Shown one piece after another: positions 43,650-64,000 of a stretch of DNA of 64,000 bases (position 1 is the first letter of the stretch; each line of letters opens with the position of its first letter). The notes beneath the pieces are model-generated. The model was not told the origin of the DNA. It was given only the letters and a program-made list of their open reading frames with translations, and did not search any database. Position numbers and translations under genes: made by a program. The stretch comes from an uncultured bacterium (GTDB lineage Bacteria > Verrucomicrobiota > Verrucomicrobiia > CAIQCK01), in contig CAIQCK010000103.1 of NCBI GenBank assembly GCA_903870275.1, positions 3,819 through 67,818 of the forward strand, given 5' to 3'.

Positions 43650-43958
43650 ATGTTCAGTTTTGTCAGACGCAGGCCGTCGCCTGCTATCGCCGTTTATACT
43701 GTGGCCGATAATTTGCTCCTTTTTCCAGTGTCAAATGCCCATGACCCTAAAAACTTTCCCCGGTATTTCCCGTTGTCAGCCTGTTGAAACGGCGTAGTCT
43801 GTCCGCCGGCATCGGACGGCGCAATTGGCGAGAGGAGCTTTTCTTCGTTTGAGCCGTCTAATGCCGTGGTGACCCACATGAACTTCAGACCTGGAAACCG
43901 AAGTTGCGCGGGCAAGGATGCCGGTGCCACGGTCAACTTCAGTTTTCGGGTCAAACCC

Positions 43959-50591: not shown

Positions 50592-50747
50592 CGACGCACG
50601 GCGAAAGCGGGAATTCATTGCGGTTTTTGAGATTTCCGGGATGAACTCTGTTGCTTGCTCAGGCTCAAGCAAATCAAAACTCTGTTTCGGATCTAGAGGA
50701 AACACTTCACGCCCACCGGCCAGGGCAAAAGGCTGACAACGCTTCCG

Positions 50748-53222
50748 TCACTTCAACGACCAGGCTTCGAGTCGTCTGGCACCGGTATAGAGAATCTGCC
50801 CGTTCGGCGCAAACGCCAGGGCGATCCCCGGCCCGACCGCATTCACCCGGTTGAACTGAATCTCCACCAGCAACTCGCCGGTACCGATGCGAAACACTCC
50901 AATCCGGCCTTTGTCCGTATTCAAAGGCGCCCCGACGATGGCCAGCCAGCGGCCATCGGGTGAGAAGACCAGCGAGCACGCCCGGTCCGCCACCGGGTAG
51001 GCAAAGCCTTGCTGGAGCCTGCCCGTCGCCACATCCCACAGCCGAGTTCCGTCCCCTGCCGTGGCCGTGGCAAGGCAGCGGCCATCGGACGAAAAAGCCA
51101 GTCCGCTTACTTGGCCGGCATGTTCGTCAAACTGCCGCAATAGCTTGCCCGTGGCGGTGTCAAACAGTCTTATCGTTTTCGTTGAGACCGAGCCGCCGCC
51201 CGCGGCCAGCAGACTGCCGTCAGGCGACACCGCGACGACGCTCTTCACGCCGCTGTCGCCCTTGTGCTGCCACAAAGCGCGCCCGCTCCCGATATCAAAA
51301 CAGGCGATGTCGTTGAAACCGGCATAACCCAGGCGGAGCGCGGCGCGATCAAACGCAAAAGGACCAAGGCCAATGCCGCTGCTGGGCCTGCCTTTCAGTT
51401 CGATCTCCGAAACCAACTTCCGCTCGGCGACATCCCACTCACTTAACCACCCCTGTTGGTGAACTAGCACCACCTTATGTCCGGTATCGTGGAACGCCGT
51501 CCCCAGACACCAAGACCTGGGCTCGCGCGGAACCTGCCACACAGAGTTCCCCGATTTCGCCTCCCAGATTTCGACCGTTCCGTTGGTGAGCGTTGCCAAC
51601 AACTGGCCGTCGGGCGAGAGAATGAGATGCGACGGGTTGACGAAGAGCGGTGTGGCATAGACAGGTTCGGTGAGGATTTGCCTGGGCAGAGGCGACGGCT
51701 TGGGCGCTGGCTGTTCGGCCAGGTCATATTCATTGCGGAGCAAGTTCCGCCATTGGGCCAGCACCGTCTTCTGGTCGGCTGAACTCCGAGGCTGGGCGTC
51801 GTAGATACTCCGCACGCTGACGAGCGGTTCAGGCCGGCCGGCGTTCGAAATCTCCAGCATCTCTTTGAGTGTGTGCCAGTCGGTCAACTCGAACCGGGGA
51901 TGCTTCATTAACGCGATGAGCAATTCCCTCGTGTCGGGGCGCGCAGCCACCCGCACTTCCTGCAAGAATATTTCCGGCTGGTGGAAAGGATCTCTTGCCG
52001 TGACGAGTGCCTTATAGAACCAATCGGTGAGAAAATCCTTCTCCGCGGCGCCACAAACCCGCCACAAACCGCCGGTCAAATAGCCTGCGGCGCCGACATA
52101 ATCCCTTGTTTCGTGTTTCAGCGCCGTCCGCAGGATGTCGCCGGCGCGGGCGGGTTGCAGCGCCGCCGCGCCGATGGACCATGCCGGGTTGACGCCGTGA
52201 TAATCACGTTCCGCATCCTCGCAGGTGAGCAGCGCGCCGGCATCCTCCGGTCGCAGCAATTGGGCGGCATGACGAAGGATGAAATTGGCGATTCTCACAA
52301 AGTTAGGGTTCTTTTTGTTTTCCATCCGCAGGTCTGGATCGTCCGTCACCGGCTTGCGTTGGAGAAATCGCAACAGCGCTTCCGGCCCCAGTTCGCAGGC
52401 CGTGGCCAGCAGTTCCCGGTCTGACGCCAAACAATGTTCCGCCATGTATCCCTCGTTCCAACCTTCGGGGCATAAAACAAAAAGCCGTGTCCATGCGCGC
52501 TCCCTTGGAGGCAGTGCGTCCATCTCCGTCAAGACCCGCTTGATGTCCGATTGGTATTCCGGCTGAATCGGACTTGTTTCGCGCGTGGCGCGGTTCATTT
52601 TGACTGCGAACCAACCCGCCGAATACTGGCGGCCTTCATATTTCTTCCAGTATTTCTTGAAGATTTCCGCCGTCACCCGCGTCTCCCGTTCATCCGAAAC
52701 TCCCCAAAACTTGAGCATGGCTTGAGCCACGTGATCCACCGTCTGCGGACTCTCTAACTCGTCCACGGGACGCGGGCCTCCCATGCTGCTCATGAGTGCG
52801 CTGTTCATGAATTCGTGGAGGTCCGGGAACGTGGGAGCCTCATCGTCCACGAGCGATGCGATCAGCGGCAAATCCCGTCCATCTTCGCGCTCAAAAAGCG
52901 CGCCCAACGCCAGCGTTCGCATCTTCGGGTTGGGATGTTCGAGCAGTGCCGCCAAACTCTCGCGGTTGCCACTCAACGCGCGAAGCTCGCGCGCCAGACG
53001 ATCCTGCTGCGCCGCCAGCCGGTCATTATCCCACAGCCGCAACTGCCGGTTATAAATGAGGGTGGTTCGCGCGAAGTGACTGTAGGTCTGCGCCATCCGT
53101 TCCAACTGGATCTGAACCTGATTGCCGGTGGCGTCGGCCGCTGACAAGGCCGTAGCCGCCAGAAGCCATGCTGCAAACGTGCCGATGCGAGAGAGGGACC
53201 GGTGTTTCAGTTTGCGGAACAT
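50748..53222 (-). CDS. secreted protein with N-terminal alpha-helical domain and C-terminal WD40/beta-propeller repeats
   Basis: Signal peptide (IGTFAAWLLAATALSAADA). C-terminal about 300 aa with WD-like repeats (LSPDGQLLATL..GTVEIWE; AVSPDGSLLAAGG..TIRLFD; AFSSDGRCLATAT..GTRLWD; VFSPDGRWLAIVG). Confidence 0.8.
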   Translation of the reverse strand: MFRKLKHRSLSRIGTFAAWLLAATALSAADATGNQVQIQLERMAQTYSHFARTTLIYNRQLRLWDNDRLAAQQDRLARELRALSGNRESLAALLEHPNPKMRTLALGALFEREDGRDLPLIASLVDDEAPTFPDLHEFMNSALMSSMGGPRPVDELESPQTVDHVAQAMLKFWGVSDERETRVTAEIFKKYWKKYEGRQYSAGWFAVKMNRATRETSPIQPEYQSDIKRVLTEMDALPPRERAWTRLFVLCPEGWNEGYMAEHCLASDRELLATACELGPEALLRFLQRKPVTDDPDLRMENKKNPNFVRIANFILRHAAQLLRPEDAGALLTCEDAERDYHGVNPAWSIGAAALQPARAGDILRTALKHETRDYVGAAGYLTGGLWRVCGAAEKDFLTDWFYKALVTARDPFHQPEIFLQEVRVAARPDTRELLIALMKHPRFELTDWHTLKEMLEISNAGRPEPLVSVRSIYDAQPRSSADQKTVLAQWRNLLRNEYDLAEQPAPKPSPLPRQILTEPVYATPLFVNPSHLILSPDGQLLATLTNGTVEIWEAKSGNSVWQVPREPRSWCLGTAFHDTGHKVVLVHQQGWLSEWDVAERKLVSEIELKGRPSSGIGLGPFAFDRAALRLGYAGFNDIACFDIGSGRALWQHKGDSGVKSVVAVSPDGSLLAAGGGSVSTKTIRLFDTATGKLLRQFDEHAGQVSGLAFSSDGRCLATATAGDGTRLWDVATGRLQQGFAYPVADRACSLVFSPDGRWLAIVGAPLNTDKGRIGVFRIGTGELLVEIQFNRVNAVGPGIALAFAPNGQILYTGARRLEAWSLK

Positions 53223-53230
53223 GGGATGCC

Positions 53231-55657
53231 TTAGTTGATCGTTCCTGCGCCCGCCGATGCGCGCCGCTGCCGGAGACGTGTCAATGATGACTTCGCCGTC
53301 TGGGTAAGCGGAGCGGCGGGGTCGCCGTGAGTCAGTGTTTCAATCACGGACTCCGCCGCAGCCACGCGGCTGTGTTCGAGCGCCATCACGGCCCGCGGAG
53401 GACGCAGGCGCGCGGATAACGGCAGCAATTTAATTTGCTCTGGGTCGGAGACCGTCGCCGGGCGCAGACGCGCAGCCATGAAAGCCACGGCCGCTTCACC
53501 ACCGGCTGCGAGTGTCCACGCGGCTTGATGCGCAGCCCAATGGTCATTGCTGCCAAGCACCTGCCACAAGGATTCCATTTCGGCCTGCGTCAGCGCGAGG
53601 GCGGGCAATCGGCCGTGTTGCAGCCGGCCGGTCATGTCCCAAACCAAGGCGTCAGCGTCGTCTGGCGTGACCAGCATGGTGTCGTCGGGGAAAAAAGCTA
53701 GCGCACGGCCATCTCTTCTGCCGGTTTTCCAGCGGTGGATTTCCTTCCTGGTCAGCACCTCCCAGAACGCAATCTCACCAAACCGGATCGTCGCCAGAAG
53801 GCAGCCATCAGAAGAAATCGCAGCGGCCGCCTCGTGACTTCCCTTCGCAAGGATTTCACCCGTCTTCGCGTCCCAAACACCGCTGCCCACCGCCAGCCAG
53901 TCGCCATCGGGCGAGACGGCAAGGCTTGGGAGCAAATGGTTGGCGCCCTTGAGCGCGCGGACATCTTCGCCCGTCGTCAGGTCTCGCAAGGCCAGATTCT
54001 GGTATTCACCCGCCCACCAAGCTTGGCTGCCGTCTGATGTGGGTTGCACTGAATAGACAGGTTTCTTGGGGCGCGCGGCTTTTTTTTCAGCGCCGGCACC
54101 GTTCGTTGGTTGCGCCGCAGGGATCGGTGCTTTCGGGTTGTCTATTGAACGCAGCAGCTTACCGGAGGCGGCTTCCCACACGCACATCCCATTCCGTGCA
54201 CCCGTCAACACCTCTTTGCCGTCCGCCAGAAACGCCACAGGTCCGTTGCCTTGGTGGTTTTTTCCAAATTGCGAAACCGGTTCTCCGGTCGCCGTATCAA
54301 AAAGAAAGAACGTGTCACCGCCATTGATCCAAGCTGTCGCGGCAAGGACGCGGCCATCGGGCGAAAACCTCAAATGTTGCACACCCCAATGAGACCCCAC
54401 GCCTTCGATCCGTTTCCGTTCTCGCGCTTCCGGCCAAGTCCACAGAATGATTCTGCCGTCCTGGCCGCCCGTGGCGATCGTCCTGCCATCCGGCGACACC
54501 GCGACCGCCTGTACCGGTTCGTCATGGCCGCAGCCGGGATTGATCTCCTGCCAGGTGTCCGTGTTCCAAAACCGAACACGATGCCCCTGTCCGGTGGCGA
54601 GGGTTTTCCCATCGGGCGAAAAGGCCAACGCTCCAACAGCTTCATGACTGGCTGGCAGACGATGAAGTTCTTGGCCGGTGACGGGGTCGTAGATTCTGAC
54701 CATTTCAGAACCCTTGGCGGCAAACCATCGGCCATCGGGCGAGAACACGCCCCCGCTGTAAGTGCCCGGCACATCATGCAACTCTTGTCCCGTGGCGGGA
54801 TCCCAGAATCGCAAAAACGCCCGATGGGCTCCGGGAATTGGCACCATGCAGGAACCCACCACTATTTTGCCGTTGGGTGAAAAGGCGAACCACGCATGAA
54901 AACCCGTCCCACCCGCCAGCCGAACGGGCGGACCTTCCGTATGGACGGGGCAAACCCACATCTCACCTTCGAAGGAACGCCCCCGGGAATAGGCCAAGGC
55001 GAGATACTGGTCGTCCGGAGAAAATTGCAGAGCCGAGACCAACGGAGAAAATTGCATTTTTTGAAACAACTTCTCATCCGATTTCCAACGCCGCAGTTCT
55101 TTCGCCTGTTCCACATCCCAGAAGATGATGTCGCCGCCATCGCCACTGGCTGCTTGAAGCCCGTCCGCGCTCAAGGCCACGGCGCGAGATATCTCCTTCG
55201 CACCGGTCAATTCGGAGCGGCGCTCCCCGGTGGCCGCATCGAAAACATGGATGATTGGAGGCCCGTTCTCCGCCAGCACCACCGTCCGCCAATCCCGCGA
55301 AATCGCGCCAGCCGTCACGAAGGATGTGGGCTTGAACACCTGCCGTTTTTTTCCTGTCGCCACGTCCCAAAGACCGACTTCGTTCCCTGCCTCCGTGAAC
55401 AACACCGATCCATCGGGCGAAAACGCCAAGCTGCGAATGTGTTCCTGGTGCATAAACCTGTGCGAGCCGAGGCGCGCCACTGTTTTTAGAGCGGCTTCAT
55501 CGCCACCCACGGGTTCCGCGCCAATCGCCACTGCCAGTGTTGGATCCCCTGCAATAGTCAACAACATCGAGAGAACGGCCCCCTCCAACATAGATCGAGT
55601 TTTTCCAAGCACTCTTCTCCAGATTCCCGATTTCCGCCAAACAAAAGCTGTTGTCAT
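53231..55657 (-). CDS. WD40-repeat protein (multiple propeller blades) with C-terminal helical domain
   Basis: More than 12 WD-like repeats (AFSPDG..L......WD). Alternative start at MLEGAVLSMLL (about 55591). Confidence 0.8.
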   Translation of the reverse strand: MTTAFVWRKSGIWRRVLGKTRSMLEGAVLSMLLTIAGDPTLAVAIGAEPVGGDEAALKTVARLGSHRFMHQEHIRSLAFSPDGSVLFTEAGNEVGLWDVATGKKRQVFKPTSFVTAGAISRDWRTVVLAENGPPIIHVFDAATGERRSELTGAKEISRAVALSADGLQAASGDGGDIIFWDVEQAKELRRWKSDEKLFQKMQFSPLVSALQFSPDDQYLALAYSRGRSFEGEMWVCPVHTEGPPVRLAGGTGFHAWFAFSPNGKIVVGSCMVPIPGAHRAFLRFWDPATGQELHDVPGTYSGGVFSPDGRWFAAKGSEMVRIYDPVTGQELHRLPASHEAVGALAFSPDGKTLATGQGHRVRFWNTDTWQEINPGCGHDEPVQAVAVSPDGRTIATGGQDGRIILWTWPEARERKRIEGVGSHWGVQHLRFSPDGRVLAATAWINGGDTFFLFDTATGEPVSQFGKNHQGNGPVAFLADGKEVLTGARNGMCVWEAASGKLLRSIDNPKAPIPAAQPTNGAGAEKKAARPKKPVYSVQPTSDGSQAWWAGEYQNLALRDLTTGEDVRALKGANHLLPSLAVSPDGDWLAVGSGVWDAKTGEILAKGSHEAAAAISSDGCLLATIRFGEIAFWEVLTRKEIHRWKTGRRDGRALAFFPDDTMLVTPDDADALVWDMTGRLQHGRLPALALTQAEMESLWQVLGSNDHWAAHQAAWTLAAGGEAAVAFMAARLRPATVSDPEQIKLLPLSARLRPPRAVMALEHSRVAAAESVIETLTHGDPAAPLTQTAKSSLTRLRQRRASAGAGTIN

Positions 55658-55719
55658 GGGTCACCTCGATACGAGCATCACCGCTGCGGTTATCAATGCG
55701 AGTCGGTTCATAAGTGCCT

Positions 55720-57192
55720 TTATGGCGTCGGTTCGGGCGGATCTGGTTTCTTGGTCTTCGGCGCCGGCGACACGGGGGCGGACCCGACAGCAGGCTTGCG
55801 CAGTTTGTTCAGCGCCTCGGCGGCAAAGTGGCGCACGTCCCGATCTGTATCAATCAAGCAGGCGGTCAGTGGGTTGATGGCTCGCGTGTCCCCCAGCCTG
55901 CCCAGCGCCCAAGCGGCTTGGCAGCGGACCTGCTGATTCTTATCGTTCAAGCAAGCGATCAGCAGATCAACGGCTCGCTTGTCACCCAGCTTGCCCAACG
56001 CCCAAGCAGCTAGCCAGCGGACCTGCTGATTCTGGTCTTTCAAGCAAATGATCAGCGGCTCGACGGCTCGCTTGTCCCCCAGCTTGCCTAGGGACTCGGC
56101 AGAGTTACTGCGCACCGACCACGCTTCATCTTTCAGGCAGGCGATCAACGGTTCAACGGCCCGCACATCCCCCAAATCGCCCAACGCCGCGGCGGCAGGC
56201 CAAGACAGACGATTGTCCCGGTCTTGGTCCGTCAAGCAGGCGATCAGCGGCTCCAAAGCCCGCTTGTCCCCCACGTGGCCCAGCGCATGGGCGGCTATTC
56301 TGCGCACGACCCAATCCTGGTCTTTCAAGCAGGCGATCAACGGCTCGACGGCCCGTTCGTTCCCCGGTTTGCCCAGCGCCATGGCGGCATGCCAGCGCAT
56401 GACCTTGTCCTCATCCTTCAAACAGGCGATCAGATGCTCAACGGCTCGCACATCCTCCAGTTTGCCCAGGACCGAGATGGCGCCCCAGCGCATGTTCTCA
56501 TCTGGACCTTTCGAGCAGACAATGAGCGGCTCGACGACTGGCTTGCCCAGCTTGCCCAGCGCCTTGGCGGCGCCTGATCTCACACTCCGATCTTGATCTT
56601 TCAAACAGCCGATCAGCGGCTCGACGGCTGGTTTGCCCAACTTGCCCAGCGCCTCGGCGGTATGGTAGACTACATACAGTTCCTGATTCTTCATCAACTT
56701 CAAGCAGGCGATCAGCGGCTCGACGGCCCGCGCGTCTCCGAGTTTGCCCAGTGCCTCGGCGGCGACCCACCGCAGATTCTGATTCTGATCCTTCAAGCAA
56801 GCGATCAGAGGCTCAACGGCTTGTGCGTCTCCGAGTTTGCCCAACGCCTCGCCGGCGGCCCTGAACACCCTGTATTCTTGATCCTTCAGGCAGGCGATCA
56901 ACGGCTCAACTGCCCGCTTGTCCCCCAGTTTGCCCAGCGCCACAGCCGCACCCGCGCGCACACGCAAATCCGAATCCTTCAAGCAGGCGATCAACGGCCC
57001 GATGGCCCGCTTGTCGCCCAGGTCGCCCAGCGCATAAACCGCACTCTCGCGTCCAAAAAAGCCAAGCGGATCATTCAACTCGTTGATTCGTTCTTGAACG
57101 GTGTCGGTCGTTCCCACCGCCCCGGCCGCCGCAAGACTCATGCAAAGCGTTATTGAACGAATCAACGCCACGACAAAAGGCTTCACGTTCAT
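55720..57192 (-). CDS. HEAT-repeat (PBS-lyase type) protein, about 14 tandem repeats
   Basis: Signal peptide; repeat unit about 31 aa LGDKRAVEPLIACLKDQ...VR..AA.AL repeated throughout; 490 aa. Confidence 0.85.
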   Translation of the reverse strand: MNVKPFVVALIRSITLCMSLAAAGAVGTTDTVQERINELNDPLGFFGRESAVYALGDLGDKRAIGPLIACLKDSDLRVRAGAAVALGKLGDKRAVEPLIACLKDQEYRVFRAAGEALGKLGDAQAVEPLIACLKDQNQNLRWVAAEALGKLGDARAVEPLIACLKLMKNQELYVVYHTAEALGKLGKPAVEPLIGCLKDQDRSVRSGAAKALGKLGKPVVEPLIVCSKGPDENMRWGAISVLGKLEDVRAVEHLIACLKDEDKVMRWHAAMALGKPGNERAVEPLIACLKDQDWVVRRIAAHALGHVGDKRALEPLIACLTDQDRDNRLSWPAAAALGDLGDVRAVEPLIACLKDEAWSVRSNSAESLGKLGDKRAVEPLIICLKDQNQQVRWLAAWALGKLGDKRAVDLLIACLNDKNQQVRCQAAWALGRLGDTRAINPLTACLIDTDRDVRHFAAEALNKLRKPAVGSAPVSPAPKTKKPDPPEPTP

Positions 57193-57369
57193 ATGGCTGC
57201 CTTCATTTTATAACGAACGGTTGCCGATCCGCTTCACCGGTGCAGCCGCCGTTGTTGAGTCCAAGCATTGTGTGTCCGGAGCGCCCGCATGAACTTGTTG
57301 TCGTGTATGCGGCCATCTGTGTTCATCCGGGAATCTGTCAATGATCAGGAGTTGTGACCCCACGCGAAG

Positions 57370-60300
57370 TCATTTGCGGAGGTTGGCGCGCAGCTCGGCG
57401 ATTCGGTCCTGGTAATATGCCTTCTCGACGCTGGAGAGGTTGGCCTCCAACTGGTCAATCTCAGCGAGTGACGGAAGGTGAGTTTCTGTATATGCCGGCC
57501 GGAAGAGGAACAGGTTCAATACTTGTTCCCTCAGATCATCGAAGTATTGTCCGTTGCGCTTCACCGTTCGCGGTGGCAGCAACATGACCATGCGTATCAC
57601 TTCGTTTCGAGCGTCCGTCTCGTCGCTTTCAATCAAGTATCTGCTCGCGGAATAACGAATCTTTGGATGATCGGCCGCAAGCTGTTTGATCGCAAAGACT
57701 TTGATCTCCTGCCCCTTGAGTCCATGAACCGCTTCATAGATGGCATCGCCGAAACAATTGTTTTTTCCGGGCTGCCCGCGAAGTAAAAGAGCCAGTTCGA
57801 GTTTGGCAAGGCCGTAGCCTGGATCGTGTTTGATAAGATACCGCAGCAAGGCCGCCTGAATCGTGCAGGCCCACCCGCCGTTGGAAGATGAATACAGGGC
57901 CTTTACCTCGTCGAGCAAGGCTGGTGAGCCATAACGCCCGATCACGAAGCTCATCTTGAAAAGGTCGCAAGACCGCTGACCACGCCACGAAAGAGCCGCA
58001 ACCCGAAAGGCCGCATCCAGTTCCGGTACAGGTTGCTCCGGAAGCGATGCCAGTCCTTTGAAAGCAAATCGCGGGTAGCCGCTGCGAATGTCCTCCAGCA
58101 AAAGTTTGCGCGCAGCGTCTGAACCCAGTTCGATCAGACGCTGCATAATGTCGTCGGCAATCGTGTGGCCGGCGTCTTGTTCGGGTTTGTCCGGCAGACG
58201 CAACATCGCTTCAAGCACGGGCTGGAATTGCTGGCAGCGCACGCGTGACCACATCTCATCGCCGAGCACGGCACGTTGTTCGTATTCCTGGAGTCCCGGG
58301 AATGCCTGTGCCAAAGCAAGGCGATCCTTCATCGAAGCACCCTCGCCAACGTTAAGATGATACCGAAGCGCCACACGGCTCTTGAGCGGGCGAAACTGCA
58401 TGGGTATGGACGAAACATCGTAACCGGGATCGCCGGACGGTGAACGTTGCGGCTCCTCGATGCTCACCGGTTTGGTTACCCGATTCTCCAGGCTGCGTTC
58501 GCCGCCTGTGCCGTCATAAGCGATGGTCAATGACCAGGTGTAGTTGGTTCCGTATTTGTCCACCCATTGGTCTGCAAACAGATACATCTCATGATTGTCG
58601 AAGTCTTTGAAGCGGTCAAAAGTATAGCCTCTGAAGCGGCCAAAAGTTTCGCAACTGTTCCAAGCCGGTATGTTTCTTTCGGCCTCGGCGCGCGTCATGC
58701 CCGCTTTGATCGAAGCCGCTTGTGCCATCCAAAGCTTCTTGTCCTCCGGCGAACGCATGACTTTGTTGACCTTGACCGGTGCCAGCACTCTTTCCTGATT
58801 GTTTGGAATCCCGAACTTCTCTCTTTTGGAAACGTCGTAAGTGACTATCACTCGCCAGTCTGCCGAGACGAAGTACTGTTCGGTCATAGAATAGAAGTCG
58901 CCCCACCCGCTCCCGCAAAAGTCATAACTGTTTGAAGCCGGAGGAATCCATCGCGGCAAGATCTTCTCCACCTCCGCCCGCGTCATGCCCACCTTCACCG
59001 TCGCGGCACGGGCTTGCCAATCTGTTAGAGTGTCTTTGTCCTCAACGCGCACTGCCGCGTCATCAGCGTTCATTAACACCACCCGCAAACCGCGGTTGCC
59101 AATGCGATTGGGAGGCGCGCCGCCGTTGCCGCGGCAACTCGACGTGAGAAAGGCGGGATCGCGCATAAACGCCCCGCCTCGCAACACATGGCCTGTGCCG
59201 GAAACCGGGCCTTGAGGGTCTACCGGGACATTGGACAGATGCGGCTCATACCAATCCCTGCACCACTCCCAAACATTGCCGTGCATGTCATAGAGGCCCC
59301 ACGCGTTCGGCTCCTTCAACCCGACCGGGTGGGGCCTGTTTCCCGAGTTGGATTCATACCAGGCGTACATGCCAAGGCGGGTTTCGTCGTCGCCGAAGGA
59401 GTACTTGGTGGTGCTGCCGGCGCGGCACGTGTATTCCCACTGCGCTTCGGTCGGCAGCAGCGCCTTCATGCCGGGCACTTTCTCGCTCAGCGTGGCCAGA
59501 AACGGCTGGCAATCGTCCCATCGGACATTCTCCACCGGATTCCTCGGGTCTTTGGTGGGGTGCGGATTGCCGCCCAAGACGGCCAGCCATTGCTCCCGTG
59601 TTACTTCGTATTTCCCCATGTAAAACGGCTGGGTGAGAACGACCCGGTGCTTTTCGTTTCCATCGCCCATCATGAACGAGCCGCCGGGGATGAGGACAAA
59701 CGCCATTGTCACACCGCCGCCCAGGTTCACGGTGAGGGTTCTTTGCGCTTTTCGTATATCGGGCTCGCGGCTGGCTTTCGCAATGTCCGGGTGCCGCAGG
59801 ATACGGCCCTTGCCGGTGACCTCGTTCACGTCAATCGAATGAAAGACCGTTTCGGCGCGATCACTGACCAGACCCAATGCTCGCTCGTTCGGAAGTTTCC
59901 ACAATCTCTGGCGGCTGGCGTCGCTGAAGTCGGTTTTCCATTCGTTCATCAATCGGCCATCAAGAAAGGCGCGTACGCCGTTCTTCCGCACTTGCAGGAC
60001 CGAAGAATAAACCCGGTTGTTCGCCAGAGAGTGAGGCGTCCACACCGTCAGGGGGTTGTTGTTCGCCGTCCTGCCCTTCACCATTTCGAAGCCGAAACAA
60101 CTGTTGCACCAATGCCCCATCACCCAAAGAGCGGGTCTTTCGTCCTGCGAGAACAATTGCCCAACCGGCTCTTCTCCTTCGGTGCGGGTAAAGACTATGC
60201 GAAAATCGTATTCCTCCGGCGGCTCGTAGGGAATTTGCAGCCGCGCTGCCTGCACATCATCCGCACAAACCAGAGCCTCATCTCGCATCCTCCACCTTCC

Positions 60301-63300
60301 CAGAACCGCGTCCTTGATTGGATCAATAAGCGGCAACAATTGGACTGATCCCGGCCACGCCGCAGCGCTAGTCAAGTGAGCGTCTGCGCTGCCTGGCTCG
60401 AAGATCGAACCGTCATCCACCAAACCGAGCGAGCGGACGACGGTGTCACTGCGCCCAAAAACTCCGACAATCGGCTTGCCCATCCCGGCAAGTTTGATGG
60501 TATCGCCAACGCTGTTCTTGCCGCCAAGCCAGCCGCTCTTGTATCCATCATGAGTATCCAGACCACCGCCGGCGCCTTGGATCTTCATGAATTCGATCTC
60601 AAAGCCGTTAAGAAACACAATCCCCATCCCATTGAGTCCGCCAACCGCGTAGCCGGGCTTGGCCTCCACCGTCTGCGTGGGTTCCTGCACCTCTCCCTGC
60701 ACGGCGCCTAGAAACTTTTTCATGCCCGCGCGGTAGATCGGTTGCAAGGATTTCACCACCCTTTGGTTCTTCTCCTCCCCGAAACTGACCTTGAAGCCGA
60801 CCAGGAACAATTGCGGTTGCGGTATTTCCAAAAAGGCAGCGCCGATGCCGCTGCCGAGTGAAGCGGGCAGTTTGAGCATCGTAGATGTTGGTTTTTGCGC
60901 AAATGCCGGCGCGGCCATCTCAGCGTCGTCAAGCCCCGATGTGAGCCGCTTTTGCAATTGCGTTTCAGCAGTCTCGCGACCGGCTTCCGCGATTCCCAAA
61001 TGCGGCACAACCCTGCCTTTGCTGGTGATTTCTAACAGCTGGATCTCTTGAAAAACGACACGGCTTAGGAAACTCCCCACGCCGAGGCAATTGTGGTCTG
61101 GAATGTCCCAATGGGGATGAAGAGTGCCATCCTTGAAGTCTGTGTTCCAAATCGAAATCAGCTCGTTATTCAGGTAAGCCTTCACGCCGTTCTTCCGAAC
61201 TCGCAATAGGGAAGTGTAAATCTGGCCGTTTTTAAGGAAGTCCTGTCGCTTGACAGTGGTTGCATTATGTTGTGAATCCTGGCCGTTGATGTGTTCGAAG
61301 CCAAAAACTTTGTTGTGATCTCCAGCCATTTGCCAGAGGGCGGCGCGTCCAACGTGAGTCACATATTGGGCAATGCAATCGTTGCCGGAGGTGCGGATAA
61401 AAACGATGCGGAAGTCGTATTCTTCAGGCGGCTCGTAAGGAATCATTAGCCTTTCGTGTTTGCCGCTCCCGGAAACGAGACTGTCTCCTTGGAATGTCCA
61501 CGCTCCCTTTACGGCATCCTTCACAGGATCAATCAGCGGCATGAGATTGACGGCGCGCGACCATGCGGCGTCGTTTTCAGGCAGAGTAGCCAGTGCCTCT
61601 AACGTAAAAGTCTGCTTGCCGCTGCCTTGATTTGAGACAACGGTTTTTGACGACAGCCAACCACACAACTTTTTATCGGCGGAGAGTTCGGGAAGCGAAC
61701 TGCCAGAAGGCTCGGAGATTGTGTGAAACGTGACGGTTTCGTAAGGTTTCTTTGCATAAGACACATTCAGGGGTGCATGAGAAGCGGGGAAAACTCGCCA
61801 AGTTTCGTGGGGTGGCGTGCCGAGCGTGTCGGCTACGTAAGCAACTGTATCTGTCGGCACTTCCGATTCAAATGACTCGCCGGATATGAACGTGCATCCC
61901 ATGAAATTGGAACCCTCTGCGCACCACATAACAGTAGGTGGCACCGCGCAGTCAACGAACTGACAGGAACTAATGGTATTCCACTTGCTGCGAAGTAATT
62001 TCATGTGGTCGAATGGCTTGTCCTTCAAGCGCCTGTGCGCGATTTCCGGAAATCGCATTGACACGAATGCACAATGGGTAAACTGGATCCCGAAATCCGT
62101 TCCTTTGAGTGACGGGAACGCAGATTTGTAGAACAGACAGGAATCCGCCACCCACTTGGAGGAATAATAGCTAAACCACGCACCCCGCTTTTCAAACTGG
62201 CATCGGTCAAAGACGGCCCATTTCGCCTTCAGACCGTGGGGGTTAAGATTCTGTCTGATCGTAACGCCTCGTAGTACCGCCGGTTTCTCCGGCGTGCCTT
62301 CGATCGCAAACTCCCCGTCCTTGTTCAGATAAATGTCACCGCCTCGAATTTCCACTCCCGGCGCCACTTTGATCTCTATGGCGTGCCGGATATTTTCCTT
62401 TACTGCGTAAGTGCCGTTCAACACATACGGCCTCGACGTGTCTGTGAACGCGTAGTCCTTCTCGATGTTCAGGGGAAGGTAAGACTCATTTTGCTTATCA
62501 GTTCGCCACGGCGACCACCACAACAGCCCCGCGAGCGCGAAGGCGACAGCCGCGAAGGCTGCGAACACCAACGGCGCCCGCTGGCGCGGAGGAGTTGCTG
62601 CCGCGCCCGCCGCACCGCCCGCGCTCTGGGTCGGTTGCGATGCCGTGATGGTTTCCACCCGCGTCTTGACCTCACTGATTTGCTGATAGCGGCGTTCGGG
62701 TTCCTTTTCCAGCGCGCGCAACACAACTTCGTCCAGCCGCACATCAATTTGCACTTTTCTCGATGGTGGTTCGATGGGTTTGCCGGGCAGTTCGCCGGTG
62801 AGCAGTTCGTAGAGCACCACGCCGAGCGAGTAGATGTCCGCGCGATGATCGGTAACGCGATGCGCCTTCTGTTCCGGGGCCATGTAGGCTGGCGTACCGC
62901 CGGGCTCGGATCGTGATGTGGGCACTCCTGCGCGCGCGTCATTGCTTTCACAAACAGAAATGTCCGTGCTACGGCCGAGCATTTTCGCGATGCCGAAGTC
63001 GGCAATCTTGACGCGACCGTCCTTGTCCAACAGCAGGTTCTCCGGCTTGACGTCGCGATGCACGATACCGTGCTCATGGGCGTATTGCAGCGCCTCGCAC
63101 ACGGGAGGGACAATGGCCAGCGCCTGTTCCGGCGTGAACCGCTCCGCCTTCATCGCCTGGCGCAGGTTCACGCCGTCCACGAACTCCATCAGCAGGTAGT
63201 AGAAGCCGCCGGCCTGGCCGAAGTCATAAACCGTGACGATGTTCGCATGATTCAGCATCGCGAGCGCCCGCGCTTCGTGAGCGAACCGCTCGGCAAATTG

Positions 63301-63609
63301 CGGATCGCCTACGCGTTCGGGGGCGAGCAGTTTGAGTGCGACGAGGCGGTCGAGGTTCTTCTGTCGCGCCTTATAGACCACGCCCATGCCGCCACGGCCA
63401 AGGTATTCGAGAATTTCCAGTTGCGGGAAGTGCGGCGCCAGCTCCAGTGGGGACAGGGCCTTGCGGGACGCGACAGGTTCCGCATCCGGCTTCGTCGGCG
63501 CCATCGCCTCCGCCATCAGACAGCGGGGGCAAAGACCCGCCGTGGACGCCACCGGCAAAACTGCGCCGCACTTCGGGCACGCATTTGTCGCTGAAGAGGG
63601 TTCGCTCAT
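57370..63609 (-). CDS. giant multidomain Ser/Thr protein kinase: N-terminal zinc ribbon + kinase + TM + beta-rich region + 2x LamG/DUF1080-like + FGE-sulfatase (formylglycine-generating-enzyme family) + 2x BamE/SmpA-OmlA-like + C-terminal helical repeat domain
   Basis: Start ATG 63607-63609 (MSEPSSATNACPKCGAVL...CPRC). Kinase motifs GRGGMGVVYKA, VALK, HRDVKPENLL, DFGIA, APE. TM VFAAFAAVAFALAGLLWW. Duplicated about 200-aa modules (LIDPxKDAVxGxW...IPYEPPEEYDFRIVF). FGE domain (GGSFMMG...YEVTREQW...GNVWEWCRDWY at about 59034-59800). Duplicated GMTRAEVE/GMTRAEAE modules. Confidence 0.85.
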   Translation of the reverse strand: MSEPSSATNACPKCGAVLPVASTAGLCPRCLMAEAMAPTKPDAEPVASRKALSPLELAPHFPQLEILEYLGRGGMGVVYKARQKNLDRLVALKLLAPERVGDPQFAERFAHEARALAMLNHANIVTVYDFGQAGGFYYLLMEFVDGVNLRQAMKAERFTPEQALAIVPPVCEALQYAHEHGIVHRDVKPENLLLDKDGRVKIADFGIAKMLGRSTDISVCESNDARAGVPTSRSEPGGTPAYMAPEQKAHRVTDHRADIYSLGVVLYELLTGELPGKPIEPPSRKVQIDVRLDEVVLRALEKEPERRYQQISEVKTRVETITASQPTQSAGGAAGAAATPPRQRAPLVFAAFAAVAFALAGLLWWSPWRTDKQNESYLPLNIEKDYAFTDTSRPYVLNGTYAVKENIRHAIEIKVAPGVEIRGGDIYLNKDGEFAIEGTPEKPAVLRGVTIRQNLNPHGLKAKWAVFDRCQFEKRGAWFSYYSSKWVADSCLFYKSAFPSLKGTDFGIQFTHCAFVSMRFPEIAHRRLKDKPFDHMKLLRSKWNTISSCQFVDCAVPPTVMWCAEGSNFMGCTFISGESFESEVPTDTVAYVADTLGTPPHETWRVFPASHAPLNVSYAKKPYETVTFHTISEPSGSSLPELSADKKLCGWLSSKTVVSNQGSGKQTFTLEALATLPENDAAWSRAVNLMPLIDPVKDAVKGAWTFQGDSLVSGSGKHERLMIPYEPPEEYDFRIVFIRTSGNDCIAQYVTHVGRAALWQMAGDHNKVFGFEHINGQDSQHNATTVKRQDFLKNGQIYTSLLRVRKNGVKAYLNNELISIWNTDFKDGTLHPHWDIPDHNCLGVGSFLSRVVFQEIQLLEITSKGRVVPHLGIAEAGRETAETQLQKRLTSGLDDAEMAAPAFAQKPTSTMLKLPASLGSGIGAAFLEIPQPQLFLVGFKVSFGEEKNQRVVKSLQPIYRAGMKKFLGAVQGEVQEPTQTVEAKPGYAVGGLNGMGIVFLNGFEIEFMKIQGAGGGLDTHDGYKSGWLGGKNSVGDTIKLAGMGKPIVGVFGRSDTVVRSLGLVDDGSIFEPGSADAHLTSAAAWPGSVQLLPLIDPIKDAVLGRWRMRDEALVCADDVQAARLQIPYEPPEEYDFRIVFTRTEGEEPVGQLFSQDERPALWVMGHWCNSCFGFEMVKGRTANNNPLTVWTPHSLANNRVYSSVLQVRKNGVRAFLDGRLMNEWKTDFSDASRQRLWKLPNERALGLVSDRAETVFHSIDVNEVTGKGRILRHPDIAKASREPDIRKAQRTLTVNLGGGVTMAFVLIPGGSFMMGDGNEKHRVVLTQPFYMGKYEVTREQWLAVLGGNPHPTKDPRNPVENVRWDDCQPFLATLSEKVPGMKALLPTEAQWEYTCRAGSTTKYSFGDDETRLGMYAWYESNSGNRPHPVGLKEPNAWGLYDMHGNVWEWCRDWYEPHLSNVPVDPQGPVSGTGHVLRGGAFMRDPAFLTSSCRGNGGAPPNRIGNRGLRVVLMNADDAAVRVEDKDTLTDWQARAATVKVGMTRAEVEKILPRWIPPASNSYDFCGSGWGDFYSMTEQYFVSADWRVIVTYDVSKREKFGIPNNQERVLAPVKVNKVMRSPEDKKLWMAQAASIKAGMTRAEAERNIPAWNSCETFGRFRGYTFDRFKDFDNHEMYLFADQWVDKYGTNYTWSLTIAYDGTGGERSLENRVTKPVSIEEPQRSPSGDPGYDVSSIPMQFRPLKSRVALRYHLNVGEGASMKDRLALAQAFPGLQEYEQRAVLGDEMWSRVRCQQFQPVLEAMLRLPDKPEQDAGHTIADDIMQRLIELGSDAARKLLLEDIRSGYPRFAFKGLASLPEQPVPELDAAFRVAALSWRGQRSCDLFKMSFVIGRYGSPALLDEVKALYSSSNGGWACTIQAALLRYLIKHDPGYGLAKLELALLLRGQPGKNNCFGDAIYEAVHGLKGQEIKVFAIKQLAADHPKIRYSASRYLIESDETDARNEVIRMVMLLPPRTVKRNGQYFDDLREQVLNLFLFRPAYTETHLPSLAEIDQLEANLSSVEKAYYQDRIAELRANLRK

Positions 63610-63653
63610 GTCACTGTCCTGACGTGGAAACAGGGGTTGGTTACAAAGTTTTT

Positions 63654-64000
63654 TTAGCTTCCCAAGGCGGCAAACAAGACGCCCATCTCGGTCTCGACCT
63701 GACCGGGATCTCGCAGCGTGCCGGCAACCTCCGACCTCACCAACTGGCGGAACCGTTTCTTCATGCGATGCACCGCGACCTTCAGCGCGACAGGGTTCAG
63801 TCCGCAGCCAGCCGCCATCGCCGTCTGATCGCCATGTGCCGCATCGCCGGTAAGCCACGGCTTGATCTGCTCGAAGAAAGCCCCGCGCCCTTCCGATGCG
63901 CACTCCCGCTGCAACGCCTCCAAAGCGCGAGCCAGCACGGTTAGTGCCCATTGCCGGTCAAAGGCCGCGTCGGGAGTCAACGCCTTCGGGTCTGCCACCG
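63654..64000 (-). CDS. ECF-type RNA polymerase sigma factor (partial; 5' end beyond window)
   Basis: C-terminal region-4-like HTH (GLNPVALKVAVHRMKKRFRQLV) in 114 visible codons. Stop at 63654, 44 bp upstream of the kinase start. Confidence 0.7.
   Translation of the reverse strand, partial: VADPKALTPDAAFDRQWALTVLARALEALQRECASEGRGAFFEQIKPWLTGDAAHGDQTAMAAGCGLNPVALKVAVHRMKKRFRQLVRSEVAGTLRDPGQVETEMGVLFAALGS

What the first reader, a model, noticed from the sequence alone, without database searches (positions are those of the whole stretch)
50748..64000. Co-directional ECF sigma / giant transmembrane multidomain Ser/Thr kinase / HEAT / WD40 / WD40 cluster
Five consecutive minus-strand genes with short gaps (44, 178, 62 and 8 bp): a partial ECF sigma factor, a 2079-aa kinase whose extracytoplasmic part combines LamG/DUF1080-like, FGE-sulfatase and BamE-like modules, a 14-repeat HEAT protein and two signal-peptide WD40 propeller proteins. 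ECF sigma paired with an STK (kinase acting in place of a classical anti-sigma) is known in Planctomycetes. Linkage to periplasmic HEAT and WD40 scaffolds, and this exact ectodomain composition, is not a described system as far as I know. It looks like a dedicated envelope-sensing signalling module.
Basis: partly seen in the sequence, partly recalled or inferred. Interest (0 to 1): 0.65.

Follow-up and report, generated by a model that had tools for sequence, protein, structure and literature searches.

The report
ECF sigma–kinase pair plus neighbours
A verrucomicrobial sigma factor and its membrane Ser/Thr kinase form a widespread, already known kind of two-gene signalling cassette, and the HEAT and WD40 genes behind it are not conserved partners, although the HEAT protein has a domain-fusion link to the kinase's outer tail.

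Summary
The five co-directional minus-strand genes exist as described, and most domain calls hold. These are a divergent ECF-type sigma, a 2079-aa Hanks kinase with one TM helix, a 14-repeat HEAT protein and two WD40 proteins. The two "LamG/DUF1080-like" modules are confirmed at fold level only. The FGE-like domain lacks both catalytic cysteines. "BamE-like" stays unverified.

Only the sigma–kinase pair is conserved. Sigma sits directly upstream of the kinase in 68 of the 80 closest loci, nearly all of them Verrucomicrobiota. The closest clade also shares an ECF-type promoter motif, GTAACC-N14-CGTCAGG, before both genes. No HEAT, WD1 or WD2 relative follows any of the 70 complete related kinases. 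None of 49 WD2 loci or 4 WD1 loci keeps the window's arrangement; one contig, fetched twice, carries an unlinked sigma–kinase pair 4.7 kb away on the other strand.

The kinase ectodomain is a lineage-specific mosaic of modules that occur elsewhere singly. One real link emerged. The kinase's two C-terminal modules (F, G) are fused to a close relative of the downstream HEAT protein (68% identity) in other proteins.

Verdict: a new member of a known kind, the STK-linked ECF sigma factors. The five-gene "module" is only partly supported, for HEAT and not for the WD40 genes. Interest is modest.

The parts
63654..64000 (-). C-terminal 114 codons of a divergent ECF-type sigma factor. The full protein is 253 aa, and the rest lies beyond the window end.
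   Evidence: Translation. The full gene was recovered from identical contigs at L001:557-1315. hhalign against a Pfam-verified ECF sigma gives probability 90%, E=1.6e-6. TIGR02937 gives E=9e-5, below the cut-off.
63611..63648 (-). Promoter-like motif P2, GTAACC-N14-CGTCAGGAC, in the 44-nt sigma-kinase gap. It starts 35 nt before the kinase ATG. A twin site, P1, lies upstream of sigma outside the window (L001:501).
   Evidence: It is the only GTAAC-N14-17-CGTC match in the window. In 15 of the 37 loci of the sigma's own subgroup (its closest relatives) the motif lies upstream of sigma, usually about 119 nt before the sigma F22 codon, and in 15 it lies 32-35 nt before the kinase start; 12 loci have both. 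A PWM built from 26 sites in other loci scores this site 33.8, against 3.4 for the next best in the window.
57370..63609 (-). Single-pass transmembrane Hanks-type Ser/Thr kinase of 2079 aa with a 1712-aa mosaic ectodomain.
   Evidence: Pfam. TM helix at residues 344-367. Identical protein found on 11 metagenome contigs.
63520..63579 (-). Cytoplasmic N-terminal four-cysteine zinc ribbon (CPKC...CPRC, residues 11-30).
   Evidence: Weak Zn_ribbon Pfam hits. The four cysteines are at least 90% conserved in 74 family members.
62620..63417 (-). Kinase catalytic domain (residues 65-330) with VALK, HRDxKPEN, DFG and APE motifs intact.
   Evidence: Pkinase E=3e-50. Conservation across 74 family members.
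62509..62580 (-). Transmembrane helix (residues 344-367).
   Evidence: Kyte-Doolittle hydropathy peak of 2.34, the only one in the protein.
61600..62508 (-). Ectodomain module A (residues 368-670), fold unknown.
   Evidence: No Pfam or PDB hit. Homologous stretches of 50-63% identity occur in three proteins with other architectures, and a weaker one of 28% in a fourth.
60970..61599 (-). Ectodomain module B, a concanavalin-A-like lectin / CBM66 / DUF1080-like beta-sandwich.
   Evidence: 45% identical to module D. AlphaFold model has pLDDT 97.4. Foldseek matches 4b1m/4azz (CBM66), 3imm/3s5q (DUF1080 structures) and ERGIC-53. The module occurs 1-6 times in many verrucomicrobial kinases.
60355..60969 (-). 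Ectodomain module C (residues 881-1085), unknown. Weak jacalin-like hit only.
   Evidence: Jacalin E=0.036, below threshold. Found only in the closest orthologue, P0130/L004, at 72% identity.
59755..60354 (-). Ectodomain module D, a second copy of the lectin-like beta-sandwich.
   Evidence: BLASTP of B against D gives 45% identity, E=1e-61.
59068..59754 (-). FGE-sulfatase-fold domain, non-catalytic.
   Evidence: PF03781 E=5e-39. The best PDB relative is Treponema denticola variable protein 1, 2y3c, E=1e-30. Both catalytic cysteines of bacterial FGE align to R and L.
58420..59067 (-). Ectodomain module F, two repeats of about 100 aa that carry a 'V/IKxGMTRAE' motif.
   Evidence: The two repeats are 30% identical to each other. 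BamE E=0.012, sub-threshold. The single-sequence model failed. The module is found alone or fused to HEAT repeats elsewhere.
57373..58419 (-). Ectodomain module G, a C-terminal helical domain.
   Evidence: No Pfam or PDB hit. Found in 141 of the top 150 hits of the exhaustive search. Several relatives show weak HEAT_2 hits.
55720..57192 (-). Exported HEAT_PBS-type repeat protein (490 aa, about 14 repeats).
   Evidence: HEAT_2 E=5e-98. Repeat count. Hydrophobic N-terminus. 68% identical to the HEAT part of the fusion protein P0280, which is HEAT-Big_2-F-G.
53231..55657 (-). WD1, a WD40 repeat protein with a C-terminal helical domain of about 150 aa (808 aa, or 786 aa from the alternative start).
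   Evidence: Pfam. About 20 orthologue-like relatives. Colinear at about 30% identity with the extracytoplasmic part of sigma-TM-WD40 fusion proteins. The gene neighbourhood is not conserved.
50748..53222 (-). WD2: signal peptide, a conserved helical (HEAT-like) domain of 500 aa, and a C-terminal WD40 propeller.
   Evidence: Pfam. The family has about 50 full-length members and about 35 with the N-domain only. The gene neighbourhood is not conserved.

Best explanation
The conserved functional unit is a two-gene cassette: a divergent ECF-type sigma factor followed by a single-pass membrane Hanks-type Ser/Thr kinase. It is one member of a family of such pairs that is very large in Verrucomicrobiota.

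Inferred working model. The kinase ectodomain binds an extracytoplasmic ligand, most plausibly a glycan or envelope polymer, given two lectin-like beta-sandwiches and a non-catalytic FGE-fold domain. Ligand binding activates the cytoplasmic kinase. The kinase then activates the co-encoded sigma by phosphorylation, taking the place of an anti-sigma factor. The activated sigma transcribes from GTAACC-N14-CGTCAGG promoters that lie before both its own gene and the kinase gene. This gives positive feedback, and there is presumably a further regulon elsewhere in the genome.

What differs between family members. The cytoplasmic half of the kinase (zinc ribbon plus kinase domain) is nearly invariant across the family. 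The ectodomain is swapped freely. Here it is an unusually long, lineage-specific concatenation of seven modules (A, B, C, D, FGE-like, F, G).

The three downstream genes. The HEAT gene is probably a periplasmic partner of the kinase's F-G tail, because F, G and a close HEAT homologue are fused in other proteins. The two WD40 genes are exported scaffold proteins with no demonstrated tie to the cassette. They may be co-transcribed by read-through.

Shown versus inferred. Shown: the domain content, the intact catalytic motifs, the conservation of the pair and of the promoter motif, the mosaic nature of the ectodomain, the fusions, and the lack of conserved synteny. Inferred: phosphorylation of the sigma, the type of ligand, the regulon, and a HEAT-F/G interaction.
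For: Pair conservation. Sigma lies directly upstream of the kinase in 68 of 80 related loci, and just downstream in at least five more.

Kinase. The cytoplasmic part is 59-86% identical across the family, with the Cys4 ribbon and all catalytic motifs conserved, while the ectodomains are unrelated.

Sigma identity. hhalign gives probability 90%, E=1.6e-6, colinear over sigma2 and sigma4.

Promoter. The motif has AAC in the -35 element and CGT in the -10 element, which are ECF hallmarks (PMC8103513). It sits at fixed positions before both genes in the closest clade. Only 9 other matches occur in 1.19 Mb. It is the single high-scoring site in the window.

Mechanistic precedent. Direct sigma phosphorylation by an adjacent Hanks kinase is shown for EcfP/PknT and EcfK/PknS (PMC8999054; PMC13147305).

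Ectodomain. The lectin-like fold of B and D is modelled with pLDDT 97 and matches CBM66/DUF1080 structures. The FGE-like domain lacks both catalytic cysteines. No other protein covers more than 35% of the ectodomain. Modules B/D, A, F and G recur singly elsewhere.

HEAT link. P0280 is SP-HEAT-Big_2-F-G, with 68%, 53% and 71% identity to the window's HEAT protein, F and G. P0284 is SP-F-HEAT.

No synteny for the HEAT and WD40 genes.
Against: - No experiment bears on this family.
- The sigma lacks the phospho-acceptor Thr or Ser at the sigma2.2 'DAED' position that defines the ECF43/ECF59 mechanism. Here the position reads AARE, and in the sister subgroup DAQD. If phosphorylation occurs, it must act at another site. 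Alternatively, the kinase's zinc-ribbon N-terminus could hold the sigma as an anti-sigma domain does.
- Sequence-level support for the sigma assignment is below curated cut-offs.
- The ligand is unknown.
- The HEAT link rests on two fusion architectures from metagenomes, not on conserved neighbourhood.
- The closest relatives of WD1 (70% identity) and WD2 (76% identity) sit on contigs too short to test adjacency. WD1-WD2 or HEAT-WD linkage within the immediate lineage is therefore not excluded.
- The absence of intergenic terminators is compatible with one five-gene transcript.
Confidence: 0.6

Rival explanations
1. All five genes form one dedicated envelope-sensing operon. The HEAT and WD40 proteins act as periplasmic co-sensors or scaffolds that present signals to the kinase, which then activates the sigma.
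For: - The genes are co-directional with short gaps (44, 177, 62, 8 nt), and no terminator-like site lies between them on the coding strand.
- All three downstream proteins have hydrophobic N-termini, so they would share a compartment with the kinase ectodomain.
- HEAT is fused to F-G elsewhere.
- WD1 is colinear with the periplasmic part of ECF-sigma-TM-WD40 fusion proteins (the ECF57 type is described in PMC8999054).
- WD40 is the most common periplasmic accessory domain of PVC kinases (PMC11032199).
Against: - None of 70 related sigma-kinase loci has HEAT or WD relatives downstream.
- None of the 49 WD2 loci or the 4 WD1 loci keeps any of the adjacencies.
- No sigma-type promoter lies upstream of HEAT, WD1 or WD2. 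The best candidate ranks 1805th of 128,000 positions.
- The arrangement is seen only in identical contigs of one population.
Confidence: 0.15
2. The sigma-kinase cassette is self-contained. HEAT, WD1 and WD2 are unrelated neighbours, members of repeat-protein families that are very abundant in PVC genomes, and they merely happen to be co-directional. The HEAT-F-G fusions reflect promiscuous shuffling of common periplasmic modules, not a specific partnership.
For: - Downstream genes of 66 related loci are heterogeneous and often convergent.
- WD1 and WD2 orthologues sit in unrelated contexts.
- HEAT_PBS and WD40 proteins are extremely numerous: 7023 hits at E<=1e-20 for WD1.
- Module shuffling is rampant in this kinase family.
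Against: - The fused HEAT part is a close relative (68% identity over 394 residues), not a generic HEAT protein.
- F is fused to HEAT repeats in two different orders.
- The 8-nt WD1-WD2 gap and the lack of terminators suggest at least some co-transcription.
Confidence: 0.25
3. The kinase controls the sigma without phosphorylating it. Its conserved cytoplasmic zinc ribbon and juxtamembrane region bind and sequester the sigma as an anti-sigma domain does, and release it when the ectodomain is engaged. Kinase activity would then serve autophosphorylation or other substrates.
For: - The Cys4 ribbon and the segment before the kinase domain are at least 90% conserved in 74 family members.
- The sigma has no Ser or Thr at the sigma2.2 switch position, and the sister subgroup keeps an intact DxxD core-binding motif.
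- No separate anti-sigma gene lies between sigma and kinase.
Against: - The ribbon is about 20 residues long and shows no similarity to helical anti-sigma domains.
- All catalytic residues of the kinase are under strong conservation.
- The sigma's N-terminal F-x-T-T-R-W-T/S-x-V motif offers conserved Thr/Ser candidates.
- In EcfK, phosphorylation outside sigma2.2, in the linker, is functional (PMC13147305).
Confidence: 0.2

Closest known systems
ECF43 sigma / Hanks kinase pairs (EcfP-PknT of Vibrio parahaemolyticus; EcfK-PknS of Xanthomonas citri)
   Same: An ECF-type sigma is encoded next to a single-pass transmembrane Hanks-type kinase with no anti-sigma gene. An autoregulatory ECF-type promoter is likely. 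The kinase is expected to activate the sigma (PMC8999054; PMC13147305).
   Different: - The sigma here has AARE, not the QTTA/STTA motif with the phospho-Thr, at sigma2.2.
- It has a conserved N-terminal F-x-TTRW-T/S-x-V motif, which those two papers do not mention.
- The kinase carries an N-terminal Cys4 ribbon and a 1712-aa mosaic ectodomain.
- The phylum is Verrucomicrobiota.
Kinase-linked ECF groups ECF59-ECF62, ECF217, ECF267 and ECF283; the example members of ECF59, ECF61, ECF62 and ECF217 listed are planctomycetes
   Same: They come largely from the PVC superphylum, show conserved adjacency of sigma and kinase, lack an anti-sigma factor, and have been predicted (not tested) to act by phosphorylation (PMC7826278; PMC8999054).
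   Different: Group membership could not be assigned, because no ECF-Hub models were available. ECF59/60 are described as using a Ser at the DAED position (PMC8103513), and this sigma lacks it.
PVC Ser/Thr kinases with periplasmic accessory domains (PMC11032199)
   Same: They are single-pass kinases with a cytoplasmic kinase domain and periplasmic FGE-sulfatase, DUF1080, WD40 or TPR domains. Hundreds of architectures are reported.
   Different: Here seven modules are concatenated into a 2079-aa protein, against a family median of 1001 aa. No other protein covers more than 35% of the ectodomain. The lectin-like modules are too divergent for the DUF1080 Pfam model.
ECF57-type sigma factors with a C-terminal TM plus WD40 extension (Planctomycetes)
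   Same: WD1 residues 52-798 align colinearly (about 30% identity, E about 1e-68) with the extracytoplasmic part of such proteins of about 1100 aa, including the shared C-terminal helical domain (PMC8999054).
   Different: WD1 has no sigma domain and no covalent link to one. The fused sigmas keep a canonical DAED motif and belong to another group.
Formylglycine-generating enzyme (FGE/SUMF1) and non-enzymatic FGE-fold proteins such as Treponema denticola variable protein 1 (PDB 2y3c)
   Same: The FGE-sulfatase fold is present (PF03781 E=5e-39), and the best solved relative is 2y3c (E=1e-30).
   Different: Both catalytic cysteines of FGE are replaced, by R and L. A binding role is more likely than an enzymatic one.

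Membership tests
ECF (group 4) sigma-70 factors | Only sigma2 and sigma4 domains, recognisable by sequence | tested here: met
   hhalign of the 27-sequence family profile against a Pfam-verified ECF sigma gives probability 90%, E=1.6e-6, colinear over both domains. A second ECF sigma gave only 29%. PF07638 (E=0.007) and TIGR02937 (E=9e-5) are below their cut-offs.
ECF (group 4) sigma-70 factors | Autoregulated promoter with AAC in the -35 element and CGT in the -10 element (PMC8103513) | tested here: met
   GTAACC-N14-CGTCAGG is conserved at fixed positions upstream of sigma and of the kinase in the closest clade. Its function as a promoter was not tested.
ECF43 | Adjacent Hanks-type kinase and no anti-sigma factor | tested here: met
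ECF43 | Uncharged sigma2.2 motif with a conserved phospho-Thr (QTTA consensus; the Thr is present in 88% of members) | tested here: not met
   The position reads A-A-R-E in this sigma and its subgroup, and D-A-Q-D in the sister subgroup. There is no Thr or Ser (the criterion comes from PMC13147305).
ECF43 / ECF59-62 / ECF217 (ECF-Hub groups) | Assignment by the group-specific HMMs and phylogeny of the ECF classification | not testable with these tools
   No ECF-Hub models are available here, and the supplements of PMC7826278 are not held.
Hanks-type Ser/Thr protein kinase | Catalytic Lys (VAxK), HRD catalytic loop, DFG and APE motifs | tested here: met
   Pkinase E=3e-50. VALK, HRDVKPEN, DFG and APE are present and conserved in 74 relatives.
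Formylglycine-generating enzyme (catalytic FGE) | FGE-sulfatase fold | tested here: met
   PF03781 E=5e-39. PDB FGEs match at E about 1e-18.
Formylglycine-generating enzyme (catalytic FGE) | The pair of active-site cysteines | tested here: not met
   In the alignment to Streptomyces FGE (6muj/2q17), 'LCHDSYC' corresponds to 'MRDPAFL'. Both Cys are replaced.
DUF1080 / CBM66 (PF06439) lectin-like domain | Match to the family model | tested here: not met
   Modules B and D have no PF06439 hit even at E<=10. In P0139 and P0150 the true DUF1080 domain is a different region from the B/D-like one. Only in P0135 does a B/D-like repeat overlap a threshold-level PF06439 hit.
DUF1080 / CBM66 (PF06439) lectin-like domain | Concanavalin-A-like beta-sandwich fold | tested here: met
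   The AlphaFold model has pLDDT 97.4. The top Foldseek hits are CBM66 (4b1m, 4azz), DUF1080 structures (3imm, 3s5q, 3u1x) and L-type lectins, with probability 1.0 and TM 0.55-0.63.
BamE / SmpA_OmlA | Match to the family model or fold | tested here: inconclusive
   PF04355 E=0.012 (15.8 bits against a cut-off of 23.2), over 18 residues only. The single-sequence model has pLDDT 33. A related F-repeat protein carries a 'faint' BamE hit.
HEAT_PBS-type repeat proteins | Tandem HEAT repeats of about 31 residues | tested here: met
   HEAT_2 E=5e-98 and HEAT_PBS E=1e-85. There are 13 full repeats plus 1 partial.
WD40 beta-propeller proteins | WD40 repeats above the Pfam threshold | tested here: met
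   PF00400 scores 119.9 bits for WD1 and 62.2 bits for WD2, against a cut-off of 27.
ECF57-type sigma-TM-WD40 fusion | Sigma domain covalently joined to the WD40 region through a TM helix | tested here: not met
   WD1 starts with a hydrophobic N-terminus and has no sigma domain. Only its mature part is colinear with the fusion proteins.

The most novel reading that the evidence does not exclude
The lectin-like, FGE-like, F, G and HEAT modules form a recurrent set of periplasmic proteins in Verrucomicrobiota. They are found separately in one neighbourhood of a related MAG and fused in various orders elsewhere. In this lineage the set has been captured wholesale by a Hanks kinase and so wired to an ECF sigma factor that is switched on by a phosphorylation site different from the known sigma2.2 switch. 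The HEAT protein, and possibly the WD40 proteins, would then serve as detachable co-receptors, giving a multi-protein periplasmic sensor that feeds a sigma factor through a kinase.
Probability: 0.12. Interest if true: 0.6.

Novelty: new member of a known kind. Interest (0 to 1): 0.3.

Why it matters
Sigma factors activated by an adjacent Ser/Thr kinase are a recently established signalling mode, with only two pairs studied experimentally, both of them proteobacterial ECF43 pairs. This locus belongs to a very large verrucomicrobial family: more than 586 related stretches among GTDB species representatives. The family keeps the pairing and an autoregulatory promoter. It lacks the phospho-switch residue that explains the studied cases, so it is a candidate for a second activation mechanism. 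The family also shows a constant cytoplasmic transmitter joined to freely exchanged periplasmic sensor modules. The HEAT-F-G fusions give a concrete, testable hypothesis for one periplasmic partner. The specific five-gene 'module', however, is not a conserved system and should not be catalogued as one.

Tried and rejected
- Pfam and NCBIfam on the 114-aa sigma fragment gave no meaningful hits.
- Pfam on the ectodomain segments found no DUF1080 or LamG. BamE and jacalin hits were sub-threshold only.
- A profile search of the B/D module against PDB sequences gave nothing useful. The fold search was needed instead.
- A profile search of the sigma family against PDB sequences gave only weak ECF sigma hits, E=0.1-0.8.
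- The single-sequence model of module F was useless, pLDDT 33.
- PDB sequence searches of modules A, C and G gave no hits.
- Small genes directly upstream of WD2 homologues were tested as possible conserved partners or sigma factors. They are unrelated lipoproteins with no Pfam hit.
- A degenerate TAACC-N14-CGT site lies 12 nt before the WD1 start, at 55671-55692. It looked like a weak copy of the sigma promoter: 3 sites in the window against 0.66 expected. It ranks only 1805th of 128,000 positions with the PWM built from 26 real sites, so it was rejected.
- The simple sigma-70 promoter and terminator scans found nothing in the gaps on the coding strand.
- Rfam found only tRNA-Val.
- The Jogler 2012 and Wiegand 2020 papers and the supplements of the ECF reclassification paper are not held. 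The ECF group could therefore not be assigned.
- The word-indexed protein search missed the F and G homologues. The exhaustive search found them.

Full report
**1. What is in the sequence**

The minus strand between 50748 and 64000 carries five consecutive ORFs.
- 63654-64000: the last 114 codons of a gene cut by the window end.
- 57370-63609: 2079 aa.
- 55720-57192: 490 aa.
- 53231-55657: 808 aa. An alternative start used in some gene calls gives 786 aa.
- 50748-53222: 824 aa.

The gaps are 44, 177, 62 and 8 nt. Identical copies of the kinase gene lie on 11 metagenome contigs. All the contigs shown end about 1.36 kb upstream of the kinase. They supplied the rest of the first gene.

Pfam recovers these domains.
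- Pkinase, E=3e-50.
- FGE-sulfatase, E=5e-39.
- HEAT_2 and HEAT_PBS, E=5e-98 and 1e-85, with 13 full repeats and 1 partial.
- WD40 in both downstream proteins.

The kinase has a single hydrophobic helix at residues 344-367. This puts residues 1-343 in the cytoplasm and 1712 residues outside. No terminator-like hairpin lies in the gaps on the coding strand.

**2. The sigma factor**

The window fragment alone matches nothing. The full protein is 253 aa if translation starts at L001:557. It begins with F-L-T-T-R-W-T-R-V and scores below the curated cut-offs: PF07638 E=0.007 and TIGR02937 E=9e-5.

An alignment of 27 relatives taken from related loci was compared with a Pfam-verified ECF sigma by profile-profile alignment. 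The result was probability 90%, E=1.6e-6, colinear over sigma2 and sigma4. A second canonical ECF sigma gave only 29%. I accept it as a divergent ECF-type sigma.

The alignment places A-A-R-E at the position of the canonical D-A-E-D core-binding motif. In a 77-sequence family alignment this sigma's own subgroup has the consensus aARE/D. The sister subgroup keeps D-A-Q-D.

**3. The kinase**

VALK, HRDVKPEN, DFG and APE are all present. They are conserved, together with an N-terminal C-P-x-C...C-P-x-C zinc ribbon, at 90% or more in 74 family members.

I divided the ectodomain into seven segments.
- **B (671-880) and D (1086-1285).** They are 45% identical to each other. They do not match Pfam DUF1080. 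An AlphaFold model built with 39 homologous modules has pLDDT 97.4. Its best structural matches are CBM66, the DUF1080 structural-genomics proteins and L-type lectins, with TM about 0.6.
- **FGE-like domain.** It is closest to the non-enzymatic Treponema denticola variable protein 1. It has R and L where bacterial FGE has its two catalytic cysteines.
- **F (1515-1730).** It consists of two repeats of about 100 residues. The BamE hit is sub-threshold (E=0.012), and the single-sequence model failed.
- **A, C and G.** They have no Pfam or PDB match.

**4. Is the neighbourhood conserved?**

*Starting from the kinase.* A scan of one genome per GTDB species gave more than 586 relatives. I examined the best 80 loci. 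Most are labelled Verrucomicrobiota or one of its lineages, and a few bins carry other labels. In most of these loci only residues 1-340 of the kinase align, at 59-86% identity.
- A sigma homologue lies directly upstream in 68 loci, and just downstream in at least five more.
- 70 loci have complete kinase ORFs, with a median length of 1001 aa. Only one other kinase exceeds 2000 aa.
- 56 of these loci have at least 2 kb of downstream sequence, and 48 have at least 5 kb.
- None has a HEAT, WD1 or WD2 relative at E<=1e-5, apart from one weak, generic WD40 hit of 28-30% identity in L081.
- Clustering 207 downstream genes found no recurrent family except sigma itself.
- The closest orthologue, L004, has a sigma 82% identical and a kinase N-terminus 86% identical. 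Its ectodomain is shorter (B-C-D only) and its neighbours are unrelated.

*Starting from WD2.* WD2 has about 50 full-length relatives and about 35 relatives with the N-domain only. I examined 49 loci, 25 of them with at least 2.5 kb upstream.
- None has a WD1-like or HEAT-like neighbour.
- One contig type has a sigma-kinase pair, 4.7 kb away on the other strand.

*Starting from WD1.* Four loci with orthologues of 51-55% identity have unrelated neighbours.

**5. A conserved regulatory element**

K-mer counting upstream of the sigma genes revealed GTAACC-N14-(A/G)CGTCAGG.
- In 15 of the 37 loci of this sigma's own subgroup (its closest relatives) the motif lies upstream of sigma, usually about 119 nt before the sigma F22 codon.
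- In 15 of them it also lies 32-35 nt before the kinase ATG, inside the sigma-kinase gap. 12 loci have both sites.
- Only 9 other matches occur in 1.19 Mb.
- AAC in the -35 element and CGT in the -10 element are the hallmark of ECF promoters (PMC8103513).

In the window the motif occurs once, at 63621-63644 on the minus strand. A PWM built from 26 sites in other loci scores this site 33.8, against 3.4 for the next best position. The degenerate candidate before WD1 ranks 1805th. Within the window, then, the recognisable sigma-dependent promoter serves only the kinase. Its twin serves the sigma gene. The downstream genes could still be reached by read-through.

**6. Where the ectodomain came from, and the HEAT link**

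No protein among 5.8 billion clusters covers more than 35% of the ectodomain. Module B/D recurs one to six times in many verrucomicrobial kinases and in some non-kinase proteins, and module A occurs in four other architectures.

An exhaustive HMMER search with F+G found 541 relatives.
- **P0280 (951 aa).** Its order is signal peptide, then HEAT repeats 68% identical to the window's HEAT protein over residues 14-407, then Big_2, then F (53%), then G (71%).
- **P0284 (381 aa).** Its order is signal peptide, then F (56%), then HEAT (51%). It is seen on at least 12 contigs, including one sample (ERZ1426660) that also holds the window's kinase.
- **P0279.** It is a stand-alone protein with a hydrophobic, Cys-containing N-terminus followed by F and G.
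- **Locus L138.** In the MAG that also supplies two of the closest kinase relatives, P0279 sits next to an F-repeat protein. It lies about 4-5 kb from stand-alone B/D-like (46% identity) and FGE-like proteins. No kinase lies nearby.

Two independent fusions of F with a close HEAT homologue are Rosetta-stone evidence that the downstream HEAT protein works with the kinase's F-G tail. This is the only positive evidence tying any downstream gene to the cassette.

WD1 has a weaker, generic link. Its whole mature part is colinear, at about 30% identity and E about 1e-68, with the extracytoplasmic part of sigma-TM-WD40 fusion proteins. That type is described as ECF57 (PMC8999054).

**7. Comparison with what is known**

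- Kinase-linked ECF groups are established bioinformatically: ECF43, ECF59-62, ECF217, ECF267 and ECF283 (PMC7826278).
- Direct phosphorylation is shown for EcfP/PknT and EcfK/PknS. A Thr in sigma2.2, and in EcfK also a linker Thr, supplies the charge needed to bind RNA polymerase (PMC8999054; PMC13147305).
- The present sigma shares the genomic hallmark but not the sigma2.2 Thr/Ser. It fails that ECF43 criterion. Group assignment needs models I did not have.
- For PVC kinases, WD40, TPR, FGE-sulfatase and DUF1080 are already reported as the common periplasmic accessory domains, in 307 architectures (PMC11032199). The ectodomain is thus a new combination of mostly known kinds of parts.

**8. 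Verdict**

The conserved unit is the sigma-kinase cassette with its promoter pair. It is a new member of a known kind. The giant mosaic ectodomain is a lineage-specific elaboration. The HEAT gene is a plausible periplasmic partner, at roughly one chance in three. The WD40 genes have no demonstrated tie.

The most interesting residue of the finding is that this large verrucomicrobial family lacks the known phospho-switch residue. That points to another activation site or to a binding-based mechanism. I rate interest at about 0.3.

Noticed in passing
L001:1-470 (just beyond the window end, upstream of the sigma gene): A tRNA-Leu(TAA) gene (L001:376-463) and the C-terminal fragment of a tyrosine recombinase/integrase (L001:3-368) lie directly upstream of the sigma gene. 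All the contigs shown that carry this locus end at this point. This suggests a variable or repeated mobile element integrated next to the tRNA.
   Followed up: partly
window 54000-62000: G+C content falls to 0.54-0.59 across the HEAT gene and the kinase ectodomain, with the minimum of 0.543 at 60001-62000. Most of the rest of the window is at 0.60-0.66. This would fit recent acquisition or shuffling of the ectodomain modules.
   Followed up: no
L138:4576-13386 (GCA_026397915.1, the MAG that also gave L005 and L018): Stand-alone exported versions of the kinase's ectodomain modules lie within about 9 kb of each other with no kinase nearby. They are a B/D-like protein (46% identity), an FGE-like protein, an F-G protein (59-66% identity) and an F-repeat protein. 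Whether the co-location is more than chance was not tested.
   Followed up: partly
L021, L025, L048, L070, L081 (related loci): In five related loci (at least three of which show a 4-nt overlap) the sigma homologue lies immediately downstream of the kinase instead of upstream, so the gene order of the cassette is inverted.
   Followed up: partly
window 51663-53222 (-), the WD2 N-terminal domain: The first 500 residues of WD2 form a well-conserved family of their own, with 15 invariant columns. About 35 relatives, including some from Planctomycetes (Thermoguttaceae, Schlesneria), consist of this domain alone without the WD40 propeller. No Pfam family covers it beyond a weak HEAT_2 hit.
   Followed up: partly
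L001:538-567: A nine-codon ORF (MMCPGCDGC*) lies between the P1 promoter-like motif and the sigma start codon. Its conservation was not examined and it may be chance.
   Followed up: no
window 43866-50591 (+): A 2241-aa protein with a passenger-associated-transport repeat (PATR) converges on WD2, with their 3' ends about 156 nt apart. The 682-aa ORF at 48657-50705 (-), which almost entirely overlaps it on the opposite strand, looks like a shadow ORF of this gene.
   Followed up: partly
window 27200-43649: This stretch holds a dense block of other signalling genes. There are two large multi-PAS/GAF histidine kinases (33267-36356 and 36757-41385, minus strand). There is also a LuxR-type response regulator (41707-42711) and a PAS histidine kinase (42378-43649), whose listed ORFs overlap by about 330 nt. 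An 801-aa ankyrin-repeat protein lies at 27200-29605 (+), and tRNA-Val(CAC) at 31898-31972 (-).
   Followed up: partly
L087:1516-1911 and L086:9048-9443 (near WD2 homologues): A 131-aa protein with an 'IKPGMTRAEL' motif, resembling the repeats of the kinase's F module, lies two genes upstream of a WD2 homologue in another organism. The tblastn E-value is only 0.03, so this may be chance.
   Followed up: no
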